Virus record (IMG/VR): IMGVR_UViG_2713896904_000003
Coordinates: 1-6,425 of that record
Direction: 5' to 3' (one strand)
DNA: 6,425 bases
From: a virus
Lineage: Duplodnaviria; Heunggongvirae; Uroviricota; Caudoviricetes
Every line of letters begins with the position of its first letter. The stretch's first letter is position 1. Below are positions 1-6,425 of this stretch, piece by piece. The notes under the pieces are model-generated. The model was not told where the DNA came from and searched no databases. It saw only the letters and a program-made list of their open reading frames with translations. The position numbers were made by a program, and so were the translations under genes.

Positions 1-521
1 GTGACAGACGGCACAACAGGCTTCGGTAATCTCAGTGCCTTACGGGCAGCACTTTCCGGTAAGGCATCCGCCAGGTCATTACGAATCAGCCACCAGCACA
101 GTTCCGGCATTGTCACAACGTGACTATCATCAAAACCGAGATCCCGACGCACAACAGACAACACCCAGCGGGCACAGTTATCCGTTGCCATTGATTCCAG
201 CCGTTCCGTGAACTGATCGCGCAGCTGGTTATCGCAGTGCCAGCACAGACGGATTGCGCCCGGAGCGTGTCGCATTGTGGTCATGTTCTCGCTGTGCCAG
301 TCGGAATGAGGCCACTGGCAGCCTTTTTCACGAAGTAACCAGCTTTCAAGACATTCCACGCCACCAGCACGACGGATCACTGCCTCATTGCGGAACACGG
401 CCCGAACGGCAGGATCATCCGCCAGCGGTTGTGATGCCGCCGGAACGGCACCACTGGCGAAAGATGAATAACGTTCTGGCTCAGGCTCCAGCAGGACACG
501 CCCCTGCATAAACAGGGGCAT
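1..521 (-). CDS. DUF968-like prophage nin-region protein, 3' end beyond window; start uncertain (ATG at 521, 509 or 557)
   Basis: Minus-strand frame is open from 623 to position 1 with no stop; my translation from ATG 521 gives MPLFMQGRVLLEPEPERYSS...RLCWHCDNQL...ELCWWLIRNDL. Absent from the ORF track, presumably because it has no stop in the window. Cys/His/Trp-rich pattern and position after a KilA-N gene recall the DUF968/YdfU family; family name is from memory. No strong SD at any candidate start. Confidence 0.55.
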   Translation of the reverse strand, partial: MPLFMQGRVLLEPEPERYSSFASGAVPAASQPLADDPAVRAVFRNEAVIRRAGGVECLESWLLREKGCQWPHSDWHSENMTTMRHAPGAIRLCWHCDNQLRDQFTERLESMATDNCARWVLSVVRRDLGFDDSHVVTMPELCWWLIRNDLADALPESAARKALRLPKPVVPSV

Positions 522-600
522 CAACTCTGAACCTGGCCTGAACAATACGATCCCCATACGCGGGGCAATTTCAGGGGTCAGTAGTGCTCTCACGGTCACC

Positions 601-1428
601 TCAATGAACGGTATCGAGCAGCTTTAACAGCTCAGGGAATCGGGATTCGAAGAAATGCGGCTGCGTCTCGCGCGGATTTGCGGGACTGGTGATGTTCTTG
701 CCGAACATGCAGCCTTTCGCCGTCAGCGACCAGAATTTTTTGATGTTGTTAATCGCAGTGCGGCTGTATCGTTCACGTTGTTCAACGATCCCCAGCTTCG
801 CCATCTGGTGATATGCCTGATTAGCTGTCAGGCGGATACCATACTGCTTCAGCAGTGCACTCAGTGACAGCGTGGGGCGGCTTGAGCCATCAGGCGCGTC
901 AGCAGAGCGCGGTGCCAGATTCGGTAAGCCAACAGCTTCCTGGAGTTTCTGACAGGCACCAAGCACTGATGAGTTAGACAGATTTAACTCCCGGCGCATA
1001 AAGTCCAGCAGAATCACGCCAGCCTGCATCTTGTCAGCAGCCTGCCCGGATAATTTTTCCGGTGTGCTGGTTACCATGTCGAAAGTACGGATCACCTTCA
1101 GATGGAATGACGGGCTGATCCACATTGCATAGGCATACACCAGTTCCTTACAGACATATGTTCCGCCATTCCGCCCTTCTATTTTACTGACAGGTTTACT
1201 ACCCAAATTTTGGGTAGTTTCATTGAATGAACCGACACCCAGATTTTGGGTATCGATCAATTCCTGAACCAGCTCAGTAATCTGTTGGCTAGAAAGAAAC
1301 TTTCCCGGCTCCTTGGTTCTGGCATTTGCACCAGATGCTACTGCTGCGCGATGCAGATCGTTCAGGCTGTAACGCCCATAAGCATCACGACGAACTTCAA
1401 TACCATCAATGACCATCAGATTATTCAT
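601..1428 (-). CDS. KilA-N domain protein (275 aa) with uncharacterised C-terminal half
   Basis: N-terminus MNNLMVIDGIEVRRDAYGRYSLNDLHRAA... with ...YVCKELVYAYAMWISPSFHLKVIRTF is a typical KilA-N pattern. I place the start at ATG 1428 (AGAGGAGAAA SD 9 nt upstream) rather than the track's 1461, which would overlap the RusA 3' end. Confidence 0.75.
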   Translation of the reverse strand: MNNLMVIDGIEVRRDAYGRYSLNDLHRAAVASGANARTKEPGKFLSSQQITELVQELIDTQNLGVGSFNETTQNLGSKPVSKIEGRNGGTYVCKELVYAYAMWISPSFHLKVIRTFDMVTSTPEKLSGQAADKMQAGVILLDFMRRELNLSNSSVLGACQKLQEAVGLPNLAPRSADAPDGSSRPTLSLSALLKQYGIRLTANQAYHQMAKLGIVEQRERYSRTAINNIKKFWSLTAKGCMFGKNITSPANPRETQPHFFESRFPELLKLLDTVH

Positions 1429-1447
1429 ACTTCGTTTCTCCTCTTGA

Positions 1448-1837
1448 TCAGGCAGCTGCACCCGCCGTTTTCTCGTACTTACTGATAGTGATCTCGACCT
1501 TCCCTTCCGGGATAACCGGTCCCCATTCCACCAGCATTCTTTTCACCTGACTGTCGTCTTCCCACACCCCCGCGTGGGTCAGGGCGTCAAACAGCGCCTT
1601 GTTATAGTTGTCCAGATCGCGGATCCTGTTATCCGGAGGAAACAACACGATCTCCACTGAAGCAGGTGCCGACGTTGGTTTCGGCAGACGACGTAACTGT
1701 TCAACTATTGCTGCGCACGCCGCGCTCTGAAATTTTCGCCCCGCCGCGCTTATCAGGCTCTTACCTGCAAACGCCCCTTTGTTGGGGTGTCGCCAGTACG
1801 TGTTCACGCTGGGCGGAAAAGGCAGGATAAGCTTCAT
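1448..1837 (-). CDS. rusA: RusA-type Holliday junction resolvase (crossover junction endodeoxyribonuclease)
   Basis: 129 aa; PFPPSVNTYWRH near the N-terminus, catalytic-type acidic motifs RDLDNYNKALFDAL and WEDDSQV; clear resemblance to E. coli RusA. ATG at 1837-1835 overlaps the upstream stop as ATGA. Confidence 0.9.
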   Translation of the reverse strand: MKLILPFPPSVNTYWRHPNKGAFAGKSLISAAGRKFQSAACAAIVEQLRRLPKPTSAPASVEIVLFPPDNRIRDLDNYNKALFDALTHAGVWEDDSQVKRMLVEWGPVIPEGKVEITISKYEKTAGAAA

Positions 1838-2160
1838 ACTTTCAAGCCCCTCTCATGTAACCAGTGAGTTGCACGCAGCCTGGCGTTTTCCTCACCGGCA
1901 AGCAGTGCGCGGATAATCCCGACCGTCTCGCTGTCGTCGTCCTTCACTGCGGTATGAAGCGTTATCCCCCGGGCCACGCCACGCTTTATTGTGATGACGC
2001 CTTTTTTCTCCAGTGCGCGAAGATGCTCCACCGCTGCATTCACCGAACGGTATCCCAGCATGGTTGCCACCTCCTGATTGGTTGGCGGGAAGCCACGTTC
2101 TTTCTGGTAAGAAATCAGCATATCCAGCACCTGCTGCTGGCATTGAGTTAACGTCGTCAT
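1834..2160 (-). CDS. LexA N-terminal DNA-binding (winged-helix) domain protein lacking the S24 peptidase domain (108 aa)
   Basis: MTTLTQCQQQVLDMLISYQKERGFPPTNQEVATMLGYRSVNAAVEHLRALEKKGVITIKRGVARGITL aligns by eye with the LexA N-terminal domain ([58 protein letters not shown]...). Start at ATG 2160 is preceded by GTGGGGG and forms a TAATG overlap with the upstream stop; the track's start at 2193 is an in-frame alternative. Confidence 0.7.
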   Translation of the reverse strand: MTTLTQCQQQVLDMLISYQKERGFPPTNQEVATMLGYRSVNAAVEHLRALEKKGVITIKRGVARGITLHTAVKDDDSETVGIIRALLAGEENARLRATHWLHERGLKV

Positions 2161-2639
2161 TAAGCCCCCACGTAATTGCCTGGCAGATACCACTCTTCAC
2201 CCGATGCCACGCACCTTTTACTTTTGCGTACACACCGCTCACGGCGCGCCAGAAAATTGTTTCGTTCTGACTGGGAGTGGCTTTCACGGAATGCCTCCAT
2301 CCACACCGTTGCAGCACGACGAAATAAACCTCTTGACTCCAGATCTTCTGCCTGCTGAATCAGGCGCAAAATCACCCGCTGATCATTAGTGCCGACGTAG
2401 CTTTTACTGGCCACACTCATATGCTTCAGCACCGGCTCAGGTGGCAACACAGCCTTGCGAGAAAAATGCCGGTGTGTTTTGCCTTCACTGCGATAAGCGA
2501 CACGTCTGCACTGGCGTAACTTACTGGTCGTATTCAGTACACGGGGACGTGGAAAGTATGCAAACGCGTTCGCAATATCACCGGTCGTACATCCAGGATT
2601 GCTTTCAATGAATTTTTGAATCTCACTCATCAGGCTCAT
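2160..2639 (-). CDS. PerC-like transcriptional regulator with an N-terminal winged-helix-like extension (159 aa)
   Basis: C-terminal RLIQQAEDLESRGLFRRAATVWMEAFRESHSQSERNNFLARRERC matches the PerC-family pattern as I recall it (AE-LE-G-aromatic-RRAA-W). N-terminal MSEIQKFIESNPGCTTGDIANAF resembles a wHTH. Start at ATG 2639 with GGGGGTG SD; the track's longer ORF to 2717 is an upstream extension inside the O-like gene. Confidence 0.55.
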   Translation of the reverse strand: MSLMSEIQKFIESNPGCTTGDIANAFAYFPRPRVLNTTSKLRQCRRVAYRSEGKTHRHFSRKAVLPPEPVLKHMSVASKSYVGTNDQRVILRLIQQAEDLESRGLFRRAATVWMEAFRESHSQSERNNFLARRERCVRKSKRCVASGEEWYLPGNYVGA

Positions 2640-2641
2640 GA

Positions 2642-3448
2642 TCACCCCCTGAATCCTGCCGGGATCTGGCTGTAGTCCACATTGTTGTAACTGGCTTTGA
2701 AGTACGGGTCTTCGCATCTGGCCGCCGATACCGCAGGAACTTCCCAGGATTCTTCGAAATGACGATCCGGACCAAAGAACGTGACAGCCTGTTTCACAAA
2801 TTGTGTGCCGCTGTTACCCATCGCAGATACCCAGCCCGCGTAGCGTTTCACACCTTCCAGCATGGTTTCGGGGTTTACCCCCTCGTTCAAACGGGCTTTC
2901 CAGGCTTTGAAGGCCGCTGATTTTGAATTGCCACCAGCACGTTTGGGATATGCCAGCCATGCCTGCTCAAACTCCGGAGAGTATTCCGGTCGGTTTGAAC
3001 GAACTCGCACAGACTCATCAGCAGATGCACCAACAGCTATTGGTTCATTGACTGGTTCAAAAGAGTGACTGGTTCTGGGTGAATCTCCTGCACTACCCCC
3101 TGGTGCAACTCCTGCACTACCTGGTGAATTTGCTGCACCAGATAGTGAATTATTTGCACTACCCCCTAGTGAATCTCCTGCACCATCAAGATGAAGAAGA
3201 TAGATATTACTTGAGTTACCTTTTTCACCTTTCCTGGTGACTTTTTTTACCAGCCCGGACTCACAGAGGGCCGCAATATGATTCATCACAGAACGTTTGC
3301 TAATCTCGCACTGATCAGCGATATGCTGATAGCTGGGCCAGCACTCGCCCTGATCGCTGGCATTATCAGCCAGCTTAATCAGAACCAGTTTTCGCAATGG
3401 ATTTCCCACTCGAATTTTCATCGCTTTAACCATCAGCTCCATACTCAT
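2642..3448 (-). CDS. Lambda O-like replication initiator: N-terminal HTH, low-complexity linker encoded by iterons, C-terminal DnaT-like domain
   Basis: N-terminus KIRVGNPLRKLVLIKLADNASDQGECWPSYQHIADQCEISKRSVMNHIAALCESGLV is a replication-initiator-type HTH. The middle GGSANNSLSGAANSPGSAGVAPGGSAGDSP is encoded by direct DNA repeats. C-terminus EFEQAWLAYPKRAGGNSKSAAFKAWKARL. GGAGGT SD 5 nt before ATG 3448; ATGA overlap with the upstream gene. Confidence 0.75.
   Translation of the reverse strand: MSMELMVKAMKIRVGNPLRKLVLIKLADNASDQGECWPSYQHIADQCEISKRSVMNHIAALCESGLVKKVTRKGEKGNSSNIYLLHLDGAGDSLGGSANNSLSGAANSPGSAGVAPGGSAGDSPRTSHSFEPVNEPIAVGASADESVRVRSNRPEYSPEFEQAWLAYPKRAGGNSKSAAFKAWKARLNEGVNPETMLEGVKRYAGWVSAMGNSGTQFVKQAVTFFGPDRHFEESWEVPAVSAARCEDPYFKASYNNVDYSQIPAGFRG
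3079..3190. repeat. Five iteron-like direct repeats (putative origin of replication inside the initiator gene), flanked by an AT-rich tract at about 3188-3250
   Basis: Units start at 3079, 3103, 3124, 3145 and 3169 with 21-24 bp spacing: GTGAATCTCCTGCACTACCCCCTG / GTGCAACTCCTGCACTACCTG / GTGAATTTGCTGCACCAGATA / GTGAATTATTTGCACTACCCCCTA / GTGAATCTCCTGCACCATCAAG. Adjacent AT-rich stretch aagatgaagaagatagatattacttgagttacctttttcacc. Confidence 0.65.
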
Positions 3449-3681
3449 GCAGCACCTCCGAGATGCTTCATGTTTTTTCCGGAGCGAAAGGCTATAAGCG
3501 GCATACTGACGCGGTAATTACGGCCCAGCGGTTCACAAATCACTTTCTGACATTCACGGTCAACCAGGCTAACACGTAGAACATGCCCTGCAGGCGTGGT
3601 GTACCACTGCCCAACTGTAGGAATTGATGTTTTTTTACGCTGAAGTAAACGGCGAATATTGAGGCTCAACGGATTAAGCAT
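3445..3681 (-). CDS. Hypothetical small protein (78 aa), translationally coupled between the 278 aa gene and the O-like initiator
   Basis: Strong SD GGAGGG 7 nt before ATG 3681; its start overlaps the upstream stop and its stop overlaps the O-like ATG (ATGA). Basic N-terminus (NIRRLLQRKKTS). No family recognised. Confidence 0.55.
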   Translation of the reverse strand: MLNPLSLNIRRLLQRKKTSIPTVGQWYTTPAGHVLRVSLVDRECQKVICEPLGRNYRVSMPLIAFRSGKNMKHLGGAA

Positions 3682-4510
3682 GACGATGCCCTCCGCTGAT
3701 ATTCAGGAGACGGTGAATATGAAAATTAGCCTTATCCACCAAACGGATACGTTCAGCCTGCAAGTTAAGAAGGGTTTCTACCAGAACCTGATGCGCCTGC
3801 GGATCCGAAAGAGTTACCTTGCGCAGAGCACGTAGTGCAGTTGTTACATAACTGAGTTTATGTAAGTCTTCATCATTCAGACGAGTGAGGGCTGGGACAG
3901 TAGCCATGATGGCAGCCTCCTTGATCGGTGAAATACTTCCACCACCGGAAACGCCAATTTCGCTGGTGGTGAACTGAACGGGGTTGGCGTAACCGGTGAT
4001 CAAGGAAACCGGCGCATCTTTCGATGCCCCCGCCCAGCCCACCATAACTTTGATGTGAGCAAATGCGGACGATAAAAAAGACGCTGGCGCGTCATATATC
4101 GCCTTGATCAATTCCAGGACGCCAATCCCGGCACCCGCTTTATAAGGTGCCTGAACAGTGTAACGTCCCGGAATGGCAGAATCAATGTGCTGGTGGTCCT
4201 TCACACTCAACAAAATCACGCCTGAATTTCCACAAAGGACTAAAGCACTCATGCGGGTAGTCTTTGCGAAGATAGATAACGCGCTGTGTTTCTGGCTCCC
4301 AACGAATAACATGAACATAAAGTCCTCTTCCGTCACGAAACCAGCGGTTAAGTTCCTGCACAACTCGCCCCCCACAGTCAGGTAAAGTTCTCTGTGGTTA
4401 CTTACAGCCAGGTGATTTGGTAATCTGCATTCATGCCGTAACAACAGGTGTTCAGCGACGCTGACCACCAGCTGTTGCGACAAACGGTTATTTGCCGTTA
4501 AACTGTTCAT
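3674..4510 (-). CDS. Hypothetical protein (278 aa), possible Rossmann-like alpha/beta core; function unknown
   Basis: Long uninterrupted ORF; ATG 4510 overlaps the CII-like stop as ATGA. Alternating hydrophobic strands and Gly-rich loops (LVLCGNSGVILLSV, YKAGAGIGVLELIKAIYD, VSLITGYANP, EIGVSGGGSISPIKEAA) suggest a nucleotide-binding-type fold. No Walker A, macro, SIR2 or nucleotidyltransferase signature that I can confirm. Confidence 0.65.
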   Translation of the reverse strand: MNSLTANNRLSQQLVVSVAEHLLLRHECRLPNHLAVSNHRELYLTVGGELCRNLTAGFVTEEDFMFMLFVGSQKHSALSIFAKTTRMSALVLCGNSGVILLSVKDHQHIDSAIPGRYTVQAPYKAGAGIGVLELIKAIYDAPASFLSSAFAHIKVMVGWAGASKDAPVSLITGYANPVQFTTSEIGVSGGGSISPIKEAAIMATVPALTRLNDEDLHKLSYVTTALRALRKVTLSDPQAHQVLVETLLNLQAERIRLVDKANFHIHRLLNISGGHRHA

Positions 4511-5070
4511 GCGTTAGTTTCTCCACAGACACAAAACGCCACGACGCCCGGAGCTGCACACTCGCGGGCGTCACTCTTTTCTGGAGCGCAAAAGATTTTG
4601 TAGACCAGTGCTGCATGCTCCTGGAGCTTCGAAATTGACAGATACAACTCATCATTAATTGCTGTCTGCTCGTGTGGCTCCACTACCCCATCTTCGATTG
4701 CCGAACGAATCTGCTTTGAGTAACTCCCGATCTGTTCGATGACTTCCAGCAGGCGCTGGTTGATATCGGCGTTCTCTACTTCCTCAATTTCAGGAAGCGA
4801 TACAAACACCCCACCAGCAGACTGTGCGACAGCATCCGCAATGTAGTGAGTGCCAGCCGCGCGCTGTAAAATCATTGCCCATCCCAGCGGGAAAATCTGA
4901 TCGCCATCTGCACGAAGGCGGTTGAATAAAGCGTTCTCTGTTACATCCAGCCACTCAGCAGCTTCAGCGTAACCCCCCGGCAACGCCGCGATAGTTTTTC
5001 TGACAGCTTTCACGTACCACTCAGGCTGTTTTTCTACTTTCCAGTGATGCTTACCCACGGTTAGCCTCAT
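4507..5070 (-). CDS. CII-like early regulatory protein (phage regulatory protein CII/CP76-like); alternative GTG start at 5058
   Basis: Sits directly after the cro-like gene. HTH-like segment GGYAEAAEWLDVTENALFNRLR followed by a helical C-terminal region; architecture resembles CP76-family CII proteins as I recall them. ATG 5070 has a weak SD; GTG 5058 is preceded by GAGG. Confidence 0.5.
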   Translation of the reverse strand: MRLTVGKHHWKVEKQPEWYVKAVRKTIAALPGGYAEAAEWLDVTENALFNRLRADGDQIFPLGWAMILQRAAGTHYIADAVAQSAGGVFVSLPEIEEVENADINQRLLEVIEQIGSYSKQIRSAIEDGVVEPHEQTAINDELYLSISKLQEHAALVYKIFCAPEKSDARECAAPGVVAFCVCGETNA

Positions 5071-5101
5071 CGTTCTGTGGTTAAAAATTGAAGGTGTTCT
5101 G

Positions 5102-5302
5102 TTAATCTTTCGGATAGATATCCGGTCTTAAGTCAGATTTCGTAATTGCACCTGACGTGCATTGCTCAAGTTTTTTAGCCAGCACAAAACTGGCTTTTTT
5201 ATAACCATTGAAAACCAGCCGTAAGTAGCCTGGTGTTGAGCCAACTTTGCCAGCCAACTCGGCCTGCTGTTCTTTGGTTAAAGAGTCCCAATACGCTTTC
5301 AT
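5102..5302 (-). CDS. Cro-like small HTH regulator (66 aa)
   Basis: MKAYWDSLTKEQQAELAGKVGSTPGYLRLVFNGYKKASFVLAKKLEQCTSGAITKSDLRPDIYPKD; GGAGGT SD 9 nt before ATG 5302; divergent from the cI-like gene. The track's 167 aa ORF is an in-frame upstream extension that would run through the operator region and the cI start. Confidence 0.7.
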   Translation of the reverse strand: MKAYWDSLTKEQQAELAGKVGSTPGYLRLVFNGYKKASFVLAKKLEQCTSGAITKSDLRPDIYPKD

Positions 5303-5392
5303 ACAATATGTACCTCCGGTATACACATTACATGATTGAGATGAACCTTCAAGATACTTGTACCTTAACGGTACAAGGGTTTTAATTTCGTT
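5303..5392. promoter_or_regulatory. Divergent OR-like operator/promoter region between the cro-like and cI-like genes
   Basis: Perfect 21 bp palindrome CTTGTACCTTAACGGTACAAG (5357-5377) and imperfect dyad ATGTACC-tcc-GGTATACA (5308-5325) share the half-site TGTACC/GGTACA. Candidate PR on the minus strand: -35 TTGAAG (plus 5347-5352), 16 bp spacer, -10 TAATGT (plus 5325-5330). Candidate PRM on the plus strand: -35 TTGTAC (5358-5363), 17 bp spacer, -10 TTTAAT (5381-5386), which would start the cI mRNA at or near ATG 5393. Confidence 0.5.
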
Positions 5393-6067
5393 ATGAAAAC
5401 AGTCCATGACATCCGGCGGTCTAACGCCAGAAAACTGAGAGATGGTGTTGGCGGGAATTCTTCCTTTGCCACCATGATTGATCGCGAGCCAACCCAGACC
5501 AGCAGGTTTATGGGAGATGGTGCAACTAAAAATATCGGTGACAGCATGGCACGGCACATCGAAAAATGTTTCGACCTGCCTGTCGGATGGCTTGATCAAG
5601 AACACCAGACAACGAACATCACAAAAAAACCTGATGTTTCAATCACTAACAAACAAATAACGTTAGTCCCTGTCATATCATGGGTACAGGCCGGAGCATG
5701 GAAAGAAGTTGGCTATTCTGAGGTTGATTTGAGCACAGCAGAAACTTATCCCTGCCCTGTACCCTGTGGCGAAATGACTTATATCTTGCGGGTGATTGGT
5801 GATTCAATGATTGATGAATACCGCCCGGGAGATATGATTTTTGTTGATCCTGAAGTACCTGCCTGCCACGGTGACGACGTTATTGCATTGATGCACGATA
5901 CAGGTGAAACCACCTTTAAAAGGTTGATAGAAGACGGAACACAACGTTATCTCAAAGCATTAAACCCAAACTGGCCAGAGCCTTACATTAAGATCAACGG
6001 TAATTGTTCCATAATTGGTACTGTGATTTTCTCAGGAAAACCAAGGAGATACCATATTAAAGCCTAA
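5393..6067 (+). CDS. CI-like prophage repressor: N-terminal HTH plus C-terminal S24 (LexA-like) autopeptidase domain
   Basis: C-terminal region ILRVIGDSMIDEYRPGDMIFVDPE...TFKRLIEDGTQRYLKALNPNWPEPYIKINGNCSIIGTVIFS parallels lambda CI (GNSM...[40 protein letters not shown]). Ala-Gly in VQAGAW matches lambda's VQAGMF cleavage site; Ser in GDSM and Lys in FKRL form the dyad. Confidence 0.85.
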   Translation: MKTVHDIRRSNARKLRDGVGGNSSFATMIDREPTQTSRFMGDGATKNIGDSMARHIEKCFDLPVGWLDQEHQTTNITKKPDVSITNKQITLVPVISWVQAGAWKEVGYSEVDLSTAETYPCPVPCGEMTYILRVIGDSMIDEYRPGDMIFVDPEVPACHGDDVIALMHDTGETTFKRLIEDGTQRYLKALNPNWPEPYIKINGNCSIIGTVIFSGKPRRYHIKA

Positions 6068-6079
6068 TCAATATTTATG

Positions 6080-6103
6080 AACCTGCTTCGGCAGGTTTTT
6101 TTA
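6080..6103 (+). terminator. Rho-independent terminator downstream of the cI-like gene
   Basis: AACCTGC-TTCG-GCAGGTT stem-loop (7 bp stem) followed directly by a run of seven T. Confidence 0.6.
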
Positions 6104-6106
6104 TAC

Positions 6107-6140
6107 TTGACAATGTACCCTTGAGATACATAATGTACCC
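6107..6140 (+). promoter_or_regulatory. PL-like promoter with duplicated operator-like motif
   Basis: TTGACA (6107-6112), 16 bp spacer, CATAAT (6129-6134). Direct repeat AATGTACCC at 6112-6120 and 6132-6140 carries the same TGTACC core as the OR-region dyads. Confidence 0.45.
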
Positions 6141-6243
6141 AGATGAAACAGCGAACAGGCAGGATGCCCACGAAGTAGCCGCCCGGGGCATATGAAGACC
6201 GGGATGATTCGTTAGCAACAAAAAAGCGCCGTACCGGACACTT

Positions 6244-6256
6244 CGCTCTTTAACAA
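6244..6256 (+). promoter_or_regulatory. boxA-like element (possible nut-type antitermination site) in the leader of the leftward transcript
   Basis: CGCTCTTTAACAA matches the rrn boxA consensus (TGCTCTTTAACAA) and the CGCTCTT core of lambda nutL/nutR boxA as I recall them. A possible 5 bp stem hairpin CAAGT-aattgata-ACTTG follows at 6271-6288, though its loop is larger than a canonical boxB. Confidence 0.4.
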
Positions 6257-6301
6257 TCTGATCCCCATCAACAAGTAATTGATAACTTGAGGAAGTGTGA
6301 A

Positions 6302-6391
6302 ATGCACAAAACAGAACCAAAAATCGTCGCGCCAGGCTACACTGAACCGCCCCGGGAATCCTGGAGACTAAACTTCCTGAGAAAGAGGTAA
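6302..6391 (+). pseudogene. Gene start truncated by IS insertion; only about 13 native codons (MHKTEPKIVAPGY) remain
   Basis: GAGGAAG SD 6 nt before ATG 6302, about 170 nt downstream of the PL-like promoter. The reading frame runs into the putative IS end at about 6343 and stops at 6389-6391 inside IS-derived sequence. Confidence 0.35.
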
Positions 6392-6425
6392 ACAGGATGA
6401 CTAAAAATACTCGTTTTTCCCCCGA
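6343..6425 (+). mobile_element. Left end of an IS3-family insertion sequence (IS629/IS1203-like), continuing beyond the window
   Basis: TGAACCGCCCCGGGAATCCTGGAGACTAAAC... followed by AGAGGTAAACAGG ATG ACT AAA AAT ACT CGT TTT TCC CCC matches, from memory, the IS629-type left inverted repeat and the orfA start MTKNTRFSPE. Exact boundary is uncertain by a few bp. Confidence 0.55.
6396..6425 (+). CDS. IS3-family transposase OrfA, 5' fragment (MTKNTRFSP...)
   Basis: ATG 6396 with AGAGG SD; the first nine codons match the recalled OrfA N-terminus of IS629-like elements; runs off the window end. Confidence 0.5.

What the first reader, a model, noticed from the sequence alone, without database searches (positions are those of the whole stretch)
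6107..6425. Leftward early gene at the N position interrupted by an IS629-like element
Downstream of cI the expected leftward early unit is present (terminator, promoter, boxA-like CGCTCTTTAACAA, SD and ATG at 6302), but the reading frame continues for only about 13 codons before sequence I recognise as an IS3-family left end. The surviving N-terminus (MHKTEPKIVAPGY) is not arginine-rich like lambda N, so the original gene is unclear. The insertion probably inactivates the PL operon (recombination/exclusion functions or an antiterminator) and makes the prophage defective or altered in induction.
Basis: partly seen in the sequence, partly recalled or inferred. Interest (0 to 1): 0.45.

Follow-up and report, generated by a model that had tools for sequence, protein, structure and literature searches.

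The report
IS629 insertion in a prophage gene
A common jumping gene (IS629) has landed, by ordinary transposition, in codon 14 of a small accessory gene of unknown function that sits just downstream of the repressor gene in an Escherichia albertii prophage; this is a routine kind of prophage decay.

Summary
Window 6343-6425 is the left end of IS629: position 1 of an annotated IS629 aligns to 6343, with 82/83 identity. The window is a complete draft contig (BBVR01000080.1, Escherichia albertii). It ends inside the IS only because the assembly broke at a repeat.

I found the other junction on a second contig of the same assembly (BBVR01000138.1). It holds the last 56 nt of IS629, then CAC, then the rest of the gene. 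Removing the IS and one CAC copy rebuilds the empty site 1097/1097 against an IS-free E. albertii relative. This is therefore a simple transposition with a 3-bp target duplication.

The interrupted gene is not an N analogue. It is a 68-aa YdfC-family protein (41% identical to K-12 YdfC of the Qin dicBF operon; phrog_1744; function unknown). The gene is optional among phages that share this repressor and promoter. In this lineage it already carried a +1 frameshift in an A-run.

The cI terminator, an operator-covered pL promoter, an rrn/P22-type boxA and the Shine-Dalgarno/ATG are all present. No boxB and no N protein were found. Loss of the gene is shown. Polarity on downstream genes and prophage defectiveness are only inferred. 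Verdict: ordinary, low interest.

The parts
5393..6067 (+). cI-type repressor gene (ymfK/LexA-like, Peptidase_S24). It defines the immunity module immediately upstream of the finding.
   Evidence: Pfam PF00717 and phrog_4. The exact protein is WP_059259761.1, 'LexA family protein [Escherichia albertii]'.
6079..6105 (+). Intrinsic terminator of cI: 8-bp stem, 4-nt loop and a T-run.
   Evidence: SfV annotates the same site as a putative rho-independent terminator.
6107..6134 (+). pL-type promoter: TTGACA, 16-nt spacer, CATAAT.
   Evidence: 11 of 12 consensus positions, the best site in the region. It is conserved in 83 related loci.
6114..6150 (.). Two operator sites (TGTACC-N5-GRTACA) at 6114-6130 and 6134-6150, overlapping the promoter spacer, the -10 hexamer and the transcription start region.
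   Evidence: the motif also occurs at 5309-5325 and 5359-5375 between cI and cro. Six hits were found against 0.04 expected, and none of 200 shuffles reached that number.
6182..6203 (+). Small leader hairpin (6182-6187 pairs with 6198-6203) with compensatory changes among relatives. Its function is unknown.
   Evidence: 96% of cells paired, 3 of 6 pairs changed on both sides, covariation score exceeded by 0 of 500 shuffles. G.U pairs make it valid only on the + strand RNA.
6217..6244 (-). Intrinsic terminator on the minus strand: stem 6244..6223 followed by a T-run. It probably stops the convergent ECs1072-family gene transcript before it reaches pL and cI.
   Evidence: The stem contains G.U wobbles that would be A-C mismatches on the + strand, and a U-tract follows only on the minus strand (variants).
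6244..6256 (+). boxA, CGCTCTTTAACAA. It carries the rrn-type CUUUA form and shares 13 nt (GCTCTTTAACAAT) with the rrn boxA-spacer.
   Evidence: Exact 12-mer match. The sequence can be compared with the rrn and lambda boxA sequences in PMC2724277. It is present in 33 of 83 loci with the same cI, and a mosaic breakpoint lies directly 3' of it.
6289..6293 (+). Shine-Dalgarno sequence GAGGA, 9 nt upstream of the ATG.
   Evidence: Read directly from the sequence.
6302..6342 (+). Remaining 5' part (13 2/3 codons, MHKTEPKIVAPGY) of a YdfC-family gene (phrog_1744). The intact product is 68 aa.
   Evidence: Identical to uninterrupted alleles in E. coli C4 and E. albertii PTRS01000107.1. phrog_1744 at 1.2e-33. 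41% identity to K-12 YdfC, E 5e-19. pN/pS 0.20.
6340..6342 (.). Target-site duplication CAC, left copy. The right copy is on contig BBVR01000138.1.
   Evidence: Only a 3-bp duplication rebuilds the empty site (1097/1097 identical to L086).
6343..6425 (+). Left end of IS629: inverted repeat about 6343-6367, orfA ATG at 6397. The transposase reads in the same direction as pL.
   Evidence: The IS629 mobile_element annotated in LC567824 starts exactly at the base aligned to 6343, with 82/83 identity. Identity is 83/83 to a 1310-bp copy in E. coli FDAARGOS_1302. IRL and IRR match at 23 of 25 positions.
6302..6391 (+). Fusion ORF of 29 aa (MHKTEPKIVAPGYTEPPRESWRLNFLRKR). It stops 5 nt upstream of the IS629 orfA start.
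   Evidence: Read directly from the sequence.

Best explanation
This is a simple, complete transposition of IS629 (IS3 family) into codon 14 of the first ORF of the repressor-controlled leftward (pL) operon. The host element is an SfIV/SfV/e14-type lambdoid prophage of Escherichia albertii.

Shown:
- Both IS ends are present in the same assembly and flank a 3-bp duplication of CAC. Removing the IS restores the empty site exactly.
- The hit gene encodes a 68-aa YdfC-family protein. Its conserved N-terminal motif (EPxIxAPGYxxEEIxEW) is cut after GY, leaving a 29-aa fusion peptide, so the allele is null.
- The allele already had an A8 (instead of A7) frameshift. It shares this with its IS-free sister strain.

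Inferred:
- The insertion was close to neutral for the prophage. The gene is an optional cassette and was already altered.
- Any effect on downstream pL genes (in relatives: yfdP/Q/R homologues, and xis/int in SfV and SfIV) would come from Rho-dependent polarity across 1.3 kb of IS. It would not come from an intrinsic terminator.
- Because the transposase is co-oriented with pL, and the fusion ORF ends 5 nt before orfA, prophage derepression would drive transcription into the transposase gene and possibly couple translation into it.

The window ends 83 nt into the IS only because the short-read assembly broke at a multicopy repeat.
For: - Left junction: the window is identical to uninterrupted alleles up to 6342 and to IS629 from 6343.
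- Window identity: it is contig BBVR01000080.1 of GCA_001514825.1, and the organism is E. albertii.
- Right junction: found on BBVR01000138.1 of the same assembly. It holds 56 nt identical to the annotated IS629 right end, then CAC, then the rest of the gene.
- Empty-site reconstruction: 1097/1097 identical with a 3-bp duplication. With 2 or 4 bp there are about 460 mismatches.
- Literature: IS629 makes 3-4-bp duplications, and 62% of its copies in O157 lie in prophages (PMC3271280).
- Gene identity: phrog_1744; YdfC homology; purifying selection, pN/pS 0.20.
- Optional cassette: present in 19 of 83 loci with the same cI.
- A8 frameshift: present in both E. albertii strains.
- No sense-strand terminator above chance was found in a 1310-bp IS629 copy.
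Against: - The internal 1171 nt of this IS copy are not linked to either junction in the draft assembly. An internally deleted or otherwise altered copy cannot be excluded.
- The A8 run could be a shared homopolymer sequencing error, although it occurs in two independent assemblies.
- No expression or induction data exist, so neutrality and polarity are both untested.
Confidence: 0.9

Rival explanations
1. The IS knocks out an N-like antiterminator, or otherwise silences the whole PL operon, so that the prophage is defective or altered in induction.
For: - The gene is topologically at the N position, and a boxA lies in its leader.
- An IS in the first gene of an operon is classically polar (established knowledge).
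- In another phage, the position of an IS629 does change induction behaviour (PMC10810198).
Against: - The protein has no arginine-rich motif and is a YdfC homologue.
- No boxB-like G+C-rich hairpin follows boxA. The fold shows only a weak A+T-rich stem, and sequences diverge right after boxA in relatives.
- Phages with the same cI/pL lack the gene altogether, including the sequenced phage SfV.
- The allele was already frameshifted.
- No intrinsic terminator was found in the IS.
Confidence: 0.12
2. The join is an artefact or a rearrangement. The phage-IS junction would be an assembly chimera, or the IS would mark an IS-mediated deletion or inversion rather than a simple insertion.
For: - The window ends inside a multicopy repeat at a contig end.
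- The junction was not found in any other collection.
Against: The complementary junction exists on a second contig of the same assembly. It carries a perfect 3-bp direct repeat, and the empty site reconstructs exactly at 1097/1097. A chimera or a deletion would not produce a matching target-site duplication.
Confidence: 0.03
3. The insertion is selected rather than neutral. Under this reading the YdfC-like gene, or expression from pL, is costly to the lysogen, so disruptions of it are repeatedly favoured.
For: Many independent disruptions of this 207-bp gene exist in public data:
- IS1 at four or more different positions.
- IS629 in the opposite orientation at codon 30.
- Another element whose junction lies within about 2 nt of the same CAC.
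- Several A-run frameshifts.

Against: - Intact alleles greatly outnumber disrupted ones. Intact clusters are seen on 247, 108, 55 and 39 contigs, against 3-13 for the disrupted ones.
- The gene is under purifying selection.
- The region is A+T-rich and carries a homopolymer run, so mutational bias alone may explain the pattern.
- IS629 prefers prophages in general.
Confidence: 0.1

Closest known systems
IS629 (IS3 family; isoforms IS1203 and IS3411) insertions in lambdoid prophages of E. coli O157:H7 and Shigella
   Same: - Terminal sequence: 82/83 identity on the left and 56/56 on the right to an annotated IS629.
- TG...CA ends, with inverted repeats matching at 23 of 25 positions.
- A 3-bp target duplication.
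- orfA starts at IS position 55.
- The target is a prophage gene, as for 62% of copies in O157 (PMC3271280).
   Different: - The host is Escherichia albertii.
- This particular insertion site is not present in 5,426 complete E. coli genomes, the GTDB representative genomes, IMG/VR or the JGI metagenomes.
- The interior of this copy was not seen.
YdfC of the Qin cryptic prophage (dicA / ydfA-ydfB-ydfC-dicF-dicB operon, E. coli K-12)
   Same: - 41% identity over 66 of 68 residues (E 5e-19).
- Same size.
- Same conserved N-terminal motif followed by a helical, coiled-coil-like tail.
- Same kind of location: promoter-proximal in the repressor-controlled early-left operon.
- Function unknown in both (PMC5069750, PMC10448788).
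   Different: - Here it is the first gene after pL, not the third.
- No ydfA, ydfB, dicF or dicB accompany it in relatives.
- A convergent ECs1072-family gene follows it.
Lambda / P22 / phage 21 nutL-N antitermination unit
   Same: The order cI, pL/OL, boxA, first gene is the same, and the boxA sequence is of the strong CUUUA type.
   Different: - No arginine-rich N protein.
- No boxB hairpin 3' of boxA.
- No boxA on the rightward side of the window.
- The boxA module is absent from many phages that share this cI/pL.
rrn-type (Nus factor, N-independent) boxA antitermination, also used upstream of CRISPR arrays
   Same: - The 13-nt sequence GCTCTTTAACAAT is identical to the rrn boxA-spacer (PMC2724277).
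- The boxA lies at the 5' end of a transcript that in relatives must cross several hundred untranslated or antisense nucleotides.
   Different: - No evidence of NusB/NusE binding or of function.
- The hairpin just upstream of boxA is a minus-strand terminator, not an rrn-type boxB.
- No boxC was examined.
Shigella phages SfIV and SfV, phage cdtI, the E. coli e14 (ymfK-ymfT-ymfL) prophage family
   Same: - cI, its terminator and pL are 94-95% identical.
- SfIV carries the same leader and an intact but unannotated copy of the small gene.
- The gene order of the rightward operon is the same.
   Different: - SfV and cdtI-type phages have other cassettes downstream of pL.
- The window's prophage lacks the dam gene that is present in SfV and in E. 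coli C4.

Membership tests
IS629 (IS3 family) | Terminal sequence identity to reference IS629 at both ends. | tested here: met
   Left end: 82/83 to the element annotated 'IS3 family IS629' in LC567824, starting exactly at its first base, and 83/83 to a 1310-bp E. coli copy. Right end: 56/56.
IS629 (IS3 family) | Imperfect terminal inverted repeats with 5'-TG...CA-3' ends. | tested here: met
   IRL (window 6343-6367) against the reverse complement of IRR (BBVR01000138.1): the first 14 positions are all identical, and 23 of the first 25 match.
IS629 (IS3 family) | A 3-4-bp target-site duplication. | tested here: met
   CAC lies on both sides. Only a 3-bp duplication rebuilds the empty site, at 1097/1097. 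The 3-4 bp range is given in PMC3271280. Other copies seen here have ACT and CTGG.
IS629 (IS3 family) | About 1310 bp with orfA and orfB joined by a programmed -1 frameshift. | not testable with these tools
   Only the first 10 codons of orfA (from 6397) and the last 56 nt of the element are linked to the junctions. The interior is collapsed in the draft assembly.
Lambda-type N/nut antitermination | An arginine-rich-motif N protein encoded by the first pL gene. | tested here: not met
   The intact product is acidic and helical, has no arginine-rich motif, and is homologous to YdfC.
Lambda-type N/nut antitermination | boxA in the leader. | tested here: met
   CGCTCTTTAACAA at 6244-6256. Reference sequences are in PMC2724277.
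Lambda-type N/nut antitermination | A boxB stem-loop a few nucleotides 3' of boxA. | tested here: not met
   The fold of 6141-6310 shows only a weak A+T-rich 5-bp stem downstream of boxA, and the leader as a whole folds no better than shuffles (z 0.32). Relatives diverge immediately after boxA.
YdfC family (phrog_1744) | Sequence homology over the full length. | tested here: met
   phrog_1744 at 1.2e-33, covering positions 1-67 of 68. K-12 YdfC at 41% identity, E 5e-19. Family alignment with invariant E5, P6, A10, W21 and K25. Applies to the intact allele; the window keeps only residues 1-13.
YdfC family (phrog_1744) | Location in a repressor-controlled early operon of a lambdoid prophage. | tested here: met
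   Directly downstream of cI/pL here and in 19 related loci. In K-12 it lies downstream of dicA/dicBp.
rrn-type boxA (NusB/NusE/SuhB) antitermination | [quoted passage not shown] | tested here: met
   The core is 12/12. Only the first base varies among 10 leader variants, apart from one with AAAAA in place of AACAA.
rrn-type boxA (NusB/NusE/SuhB) antitermination | Nus-factor-dependent resistance to Rho termination. | not testable with these tools
   This needs reporter assays in nusB, nusE or suhB mutants. The only computational hint is weak: 7 of 8 boxA-bearing cassette types have a large convergent ORF within 1.2 kb, but so do some cassette types without boxA.

The most novel reading that the evidence does not exclude
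The pL leader of this N-less SfIV/e14-type phage group may be a self-sufficient antitermination module. It would combine an rrn-consensus boxA, and possibly the covarying hairpin at 6182-6203, to load host Nus factors without any phage N protein. That would make pL transcription Rho-resistant, so that it could cross the antisense-oriented accessory genes that follow. As a by-product it could also read through the co-oriented IS629, so the insertion would be non-polar and transposase expression would be tied to prophage induction.
Probability: 0.25. Interest if true: 0.5.

Novelty: new member of a known kind. Interest (0 to 1): 0.15.

Why it matters
It matters little in itself. IS629 and other IS elements disrupting accessory prophage genes is the well-documented way in which prophages of E. 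coli, Shigella and their relatives decay and diversify.

Three points are useful:
- The case shows how a contig that ends in an IS can still be resolved. The partner junction was found in the same draft assembly, which gave the target-site duplication and the exact empty site.
- It identifies the gene at the 'N position' of this phage group as a YdfC homologue. That links a widespread unannotated ORF, also missed in the SfIV annotation, to the K-12 Qin dicBF operon.
- It flags a conserved boxA-containing leader in phages that have no N. That would be worth a simple reporter test.

Tried and rejected
Searches that found nothing:
- Exact left-junction searches found nothing in GTDB genomes, JGI metagenomes or IMG/VR.
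- No place in 5,426 complete E. coli genomes covered the junction.
- A gapped right-junction pattern in GTDB genomes and a synthetic right-junction query against E. coli genomes also found nothing. The host turned out to be E. albertii, and the draft assembly is not in those collections.
- Looking up the 34-aa fusion peptide found no record.
- P0042, a 47-aa N-terminally shortened product, was an alternative start call on an intact gene and not the junction.
It worked only after a homology search and a cluster listing.
- Rfam found no family in 6107-6342 at E up to 1.
- For the small protein, Pfam, NCBIfam and PDB sequence searches gave nothing meaningful, only coiled-coil noise.
- The search for related loci with the family alignment failed for lack of a conserved stretch.
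- Literature searches for the assembly prefix, for boxA in SfV, for SfIV immunity and for IS629 in E. albertii gave nothing specific.

Ideas considered and dropped:
- The hairpin just upstream of boxA is not an rrn-like boxB. It pairs properly only on the minus strand and is followed by a U-tract only there, so it is a terminator for convergent transcription.
- The idea that boxA co-occurs with convergent downstream genes showed only a trend.
- I did not run structure prediction. A 68-aa helical protein from a narrow family would not give an interpretable fold match.

Full report
**What is in the sequence**

The window is the early/immunity region of a lambdoid prophage, with the rightward operon on the minus strand.
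- The minus strand carries cro-like ymfT, cII-like ymfL, an Ash-family gene, a replication initiator, PerC, a LexA-like regulator, RusA, KilA-N and DUF968.
- A cI-type S24 repressor lies at 5393-6067 on the plus strand.

- An intrinsic terminator lies at 6079-6098 followed by a T-run.
- A near-consensus sigma-70 promoter has TTGACA at 6107-6112, a 16-nt spacer and CATAAT ending at 6134, matching 11 of 12 positions.
- CGCTCTTTAACAA lies at 6244-6256.
- GAGGA lies at 6289-6293 and the ATG at 6302.

The promoter is overlapped by two copies of TGTACC-N5-GRTACA, at 6114-6130 and 6134-6150. The same motif occurs twice between cI and cro. That is six hits against 0.04 expected, and none of 200 shuffles reached it. 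This is therefore a repressor-controlled pL.

**The IS**

From 6343 the sequence is the left end of IS629.
- In the Stx2 phage record LC567824, the feature annotated 'insertion sequence: IS3 family IS629' begins exactly at the base that aligns with 6343. Identity is 82/83.
- A 1310-bp copy in E. coli FDAARGOS_1302 is 83/83 identical.
- Up to 6342 the window is identical to uninterrupted alleles.
- The phage reading frame runs on into the IS for 16 codons and stops at TAA 6389-6391, 5 nt before the IS629 orfA ATG at 6397.
- The product is a 29-aa peptide, MHKTEPKIVAPGYTEPPRESWRLNFLRKR.

**Where the window comes from, and the other junction**

The junction is absent from four collections: 5,426 complete E. 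coli genomes, the GTDB representative genomes, IMG/VR and the JGI metagenomes.
- An exact-protein look-up of the repressor found it on only two contigs. One is BBVR01000080.1 of GCA_001514825.1, which is 6425 bp long and identical to the window.
- The window is therefore a whole draft contig. It stops 83 nt into the IS because the assembler could not cross a multicopy repeat.
- The organism is Escherichia albertii.
- The other contig, PTRS01000107.1 from a second E. albertii assembly, matches window 408-6342 with no mismatch. It continues without an IS and so serves as the empty site.

I then traced the neighbouring ECs1072-family protein through its cluster. This led to a 714-bp contig of the same assembly as the window, BBVR01000138.1.
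- Read on its reverse strand, it begins with the last 56 nt of IS629. These are identical to the annotated reference.
- They are followed by CAC and then AGATGAGGAAATTT..., the rest of the interrupted gene.
- Joining window ...6342 to this contig, after removing the IS bases and one CAC, reproduces the empty site at 1097 of 1097 positions. Assuming a 2-bp or 4-bp duplication gives about 460 mismatches.

The event is therefore a simple transposition with a 3-bp target-site duplication. That is the size range reported for IS629 (PMC3271280). An assembly chimera or an IS-mediated deletion is excluded. The interior of the element cannot be linked to the junctions in this assembly.

**What gene was hit**

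The uninterrupted allele encodes 68 aa: MHKTEPKIVAPGYTDEEIYEWMTKKLAAINQLREVQSYRQETIDSLKKLDQEITSLSQESTLDIVHTN.
- It matches phrog_1744, of unknown function, at 1.2e-33. It has no Pfam or NCBIfam family.
- It is a real gene. Nine DNA alleles show mostly third-position variation, with pN/pS 0.20.
- An exhaustive HMMER search found only about 35 representatives, all small proteins.
- Aligned family members share an N-terminal motif, EPxIxAPGYxxEEIxEW, followed by a helical tail.
- One branch of this family is annotated YdfC in phage records. The protein is 41% identical (E 5e-19) to K-12 YdfC.
- K-12 YdfC is the third gene of the dicA-controlled ydfA-ydfB-ydfC-dicF-dicB operon of the Qin cryptic prophage. 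Its function is unknown (PMC5069750). DicA and DicC there play the roles of CI and Cro (PMC10448788).

The gene is thus at the N position topologically, but it is not an N analogue. The IS cuts it inside the conserved motif, so the allele is null.

**How much the loss matters**

Two observations argue that the gene itself is dispensable.
- Among 83 loci with an essentially identical repressor and pL (L001, L002, the SfIV and SfV records, and 80 IMG/VR contigs), only 19 carry this gene, all intact at 68 aa. The others have at least half a dozen unrelated cassettes at this position. These include SfV orf33 in the sequenced phage SfV.
- Both E. albertii strains, with and without the IS, carry eight A's where other alleles have seven. 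This shifts the frame at about codon 48 and gives an 80-aa product. The most economical order of events is frameshift first and IS second.

The remaining possible consequence is polarity.
- In relatives the genes downstream are a convergent ECs1072-family gene, then yfdP/yfdQ/yfdR homologues, and in SfV and SfIV xis and int.
- A full-length IS629 copy has no sense-strand intrinsic terminator above chance expectation. Polarity would therefore have to be Rho-dependent.
- Whether it occurs was not tested, and 'defective prophage' cannot be concluded from 7 kb of sequence.

**The leader**

The boxA is of the strong type. It has lambda's first base and the rrn-type CUUUA, and it shares 13 nt with the rrn boxA-spacer (PMC2724277).
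- It is part of a roughly 55-nt module present in 33 of the 83 loci. A mosaic breakpoint lies directly 3' of it.
- The same leader and gene also occur behind a different repressor.
- There is no boxB-like hairpin after it, no N protein, and no boxA on the rightward side of the window.
- The hairpin immediately upstream of boxA (6223-6244) is not an rrn-style boxB. Its stem needs G.U pairs that exist only in the minus-strand RNA, and the U-tract follows only there. It is an intrinsic terminator for convergent transcription.
- Further upstream, a small hairpin (6182-6187 pairing with 6198-6203) shows real compensatory change. It is 96% paired, three of six pairs changed on both sides, no shuffle in 500 reached the covariation score, and the slid controls were much lower. 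Its role is unknown.
- Thermodynamically the leader as a whole is unremarkable (z 0.32).
- An N-independent, Nus-factor-based antitermination role for this boxA is possible but untested. The only computational hint, co-occurrence with convergent downstream genes, is a weak trend.

**Verdict**

It is wrong or unsupported about what was lost and what follows from the loss. This is an ordinary instance of a well-known process, since IS629 preferentially sits in prophages (PMC3271280). Here it hit an accessory gene that was probably already damaged.

Noticed in passing
window 3962-4150, minus strand: Two Rfam hits above their gathering scores lie inside the long 'Ash family' ORF (3674-4510). They are C4 antisense RNA (4049..3962, 82.3 bits) and isrK Hfq-binding RNA (4150..4074, 64.2 bits). 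There is also a weak c4-a1b1 target hit at 4163..4111. This suggests a P1/P7-type C4 RNA / antirepressor-like module between the cII-like gene and the replication gene. It also suggests that the 278-aa ORF is over-extended at its 5' end; relatives annotate DUF4222 plus a 192-aa Ash protein instead.
   Followed up: no
window 6217-6244, minus strand: There is an intrinsic terminator on the strand opposite to pL, directly abutting boxA. Its stem has G.U pairs valid only in the minus-strand RNA and is followed by a U-tract. It probably ends the convergent ECs1072-family gene transcript before that transcript runs into pL and cI.
   Followed up: partly
window 6182-6203, plus strand: A small hairpin in the pL leader is present in all 'type A' leaders, whatever gene follows. 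It shows compensatory changes (CCTGG/CCAGG, CCCGG/CCGGG, CCGGT/ACCGG) and is followed by the invariant sequence GATGATTCGTT. Its function is unknown, and there is no Rfam match.
   Followed up: partly
BBVR01000138.1 (L093 574-581, minus-strand reading) and L086 6045-6052: Both E. albertii strains have eight A's where other alleles of the ydfC-like gene have seven. This gives a +1 frameshift and an 80-aa product. The gene was probably already altered before the IS629 arrived.
   Followed up: partly
proteins P0033, P0037, P0041, P0047, P0048, P0051 and others; loci L090, L091: The same 207-bp gene is disrupted independently many times in public assemblies. IS1 ends are fused at four or more different codons. 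An IS629-type end is inserted in the opposite orientation at codon 30 (L091). Another element's junction lies within about 2 nt of the same CAC site (L090). There are also several frameshifts at the A-run. Intact alleles are still far more common.
   Followed up: partly
L004 5910-6116 (phage SfIV, KC814930): An intact 68-aa copy of the ydfC-like gene is present in phage SfIV but is not annotated in the GenBank record.
   Followed up: no
window 6257-6261 and equivalent positions in L002, L015, L024, L049 etc.: A recombination (mosaic) breakpoint lies directly after boxA plus TCTGG. At least seven unrelated downstream cassettes are joined to the same leader at this point. A second breakpoint lies after GATTCGTT (window 6205-6212).
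   Followed up: partly
window about 2160-2193, compared with L001 2419-3072: The window's prophage lacks the phage N-6-adenine methyltransferase (dam) gene that lies between the LexA-like regulator and PerC in E. coli C4 and in SfV. In this it resembles SfIV.
   Followed up: no
L002 6623-7932 and L074 (about 555 nt after the cI terminator): Two other prophages with the same cI also have IS629-type ends within about 600 bp downstream of cI, at different positions. In L002 the full 1310-bp copy has a 3-bp duplication (ACT). L002 also has a second IS3-family copy on the other side of the immunity region.
   Followed up: no
cluster 2: The 90%-identity cluster that contains the window's repressor has a 486-aa cardiolipin synthase as its representative and 7,922 members. 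This looks like a clustering artefact of the protein collection, not biology.
   Followed up: no
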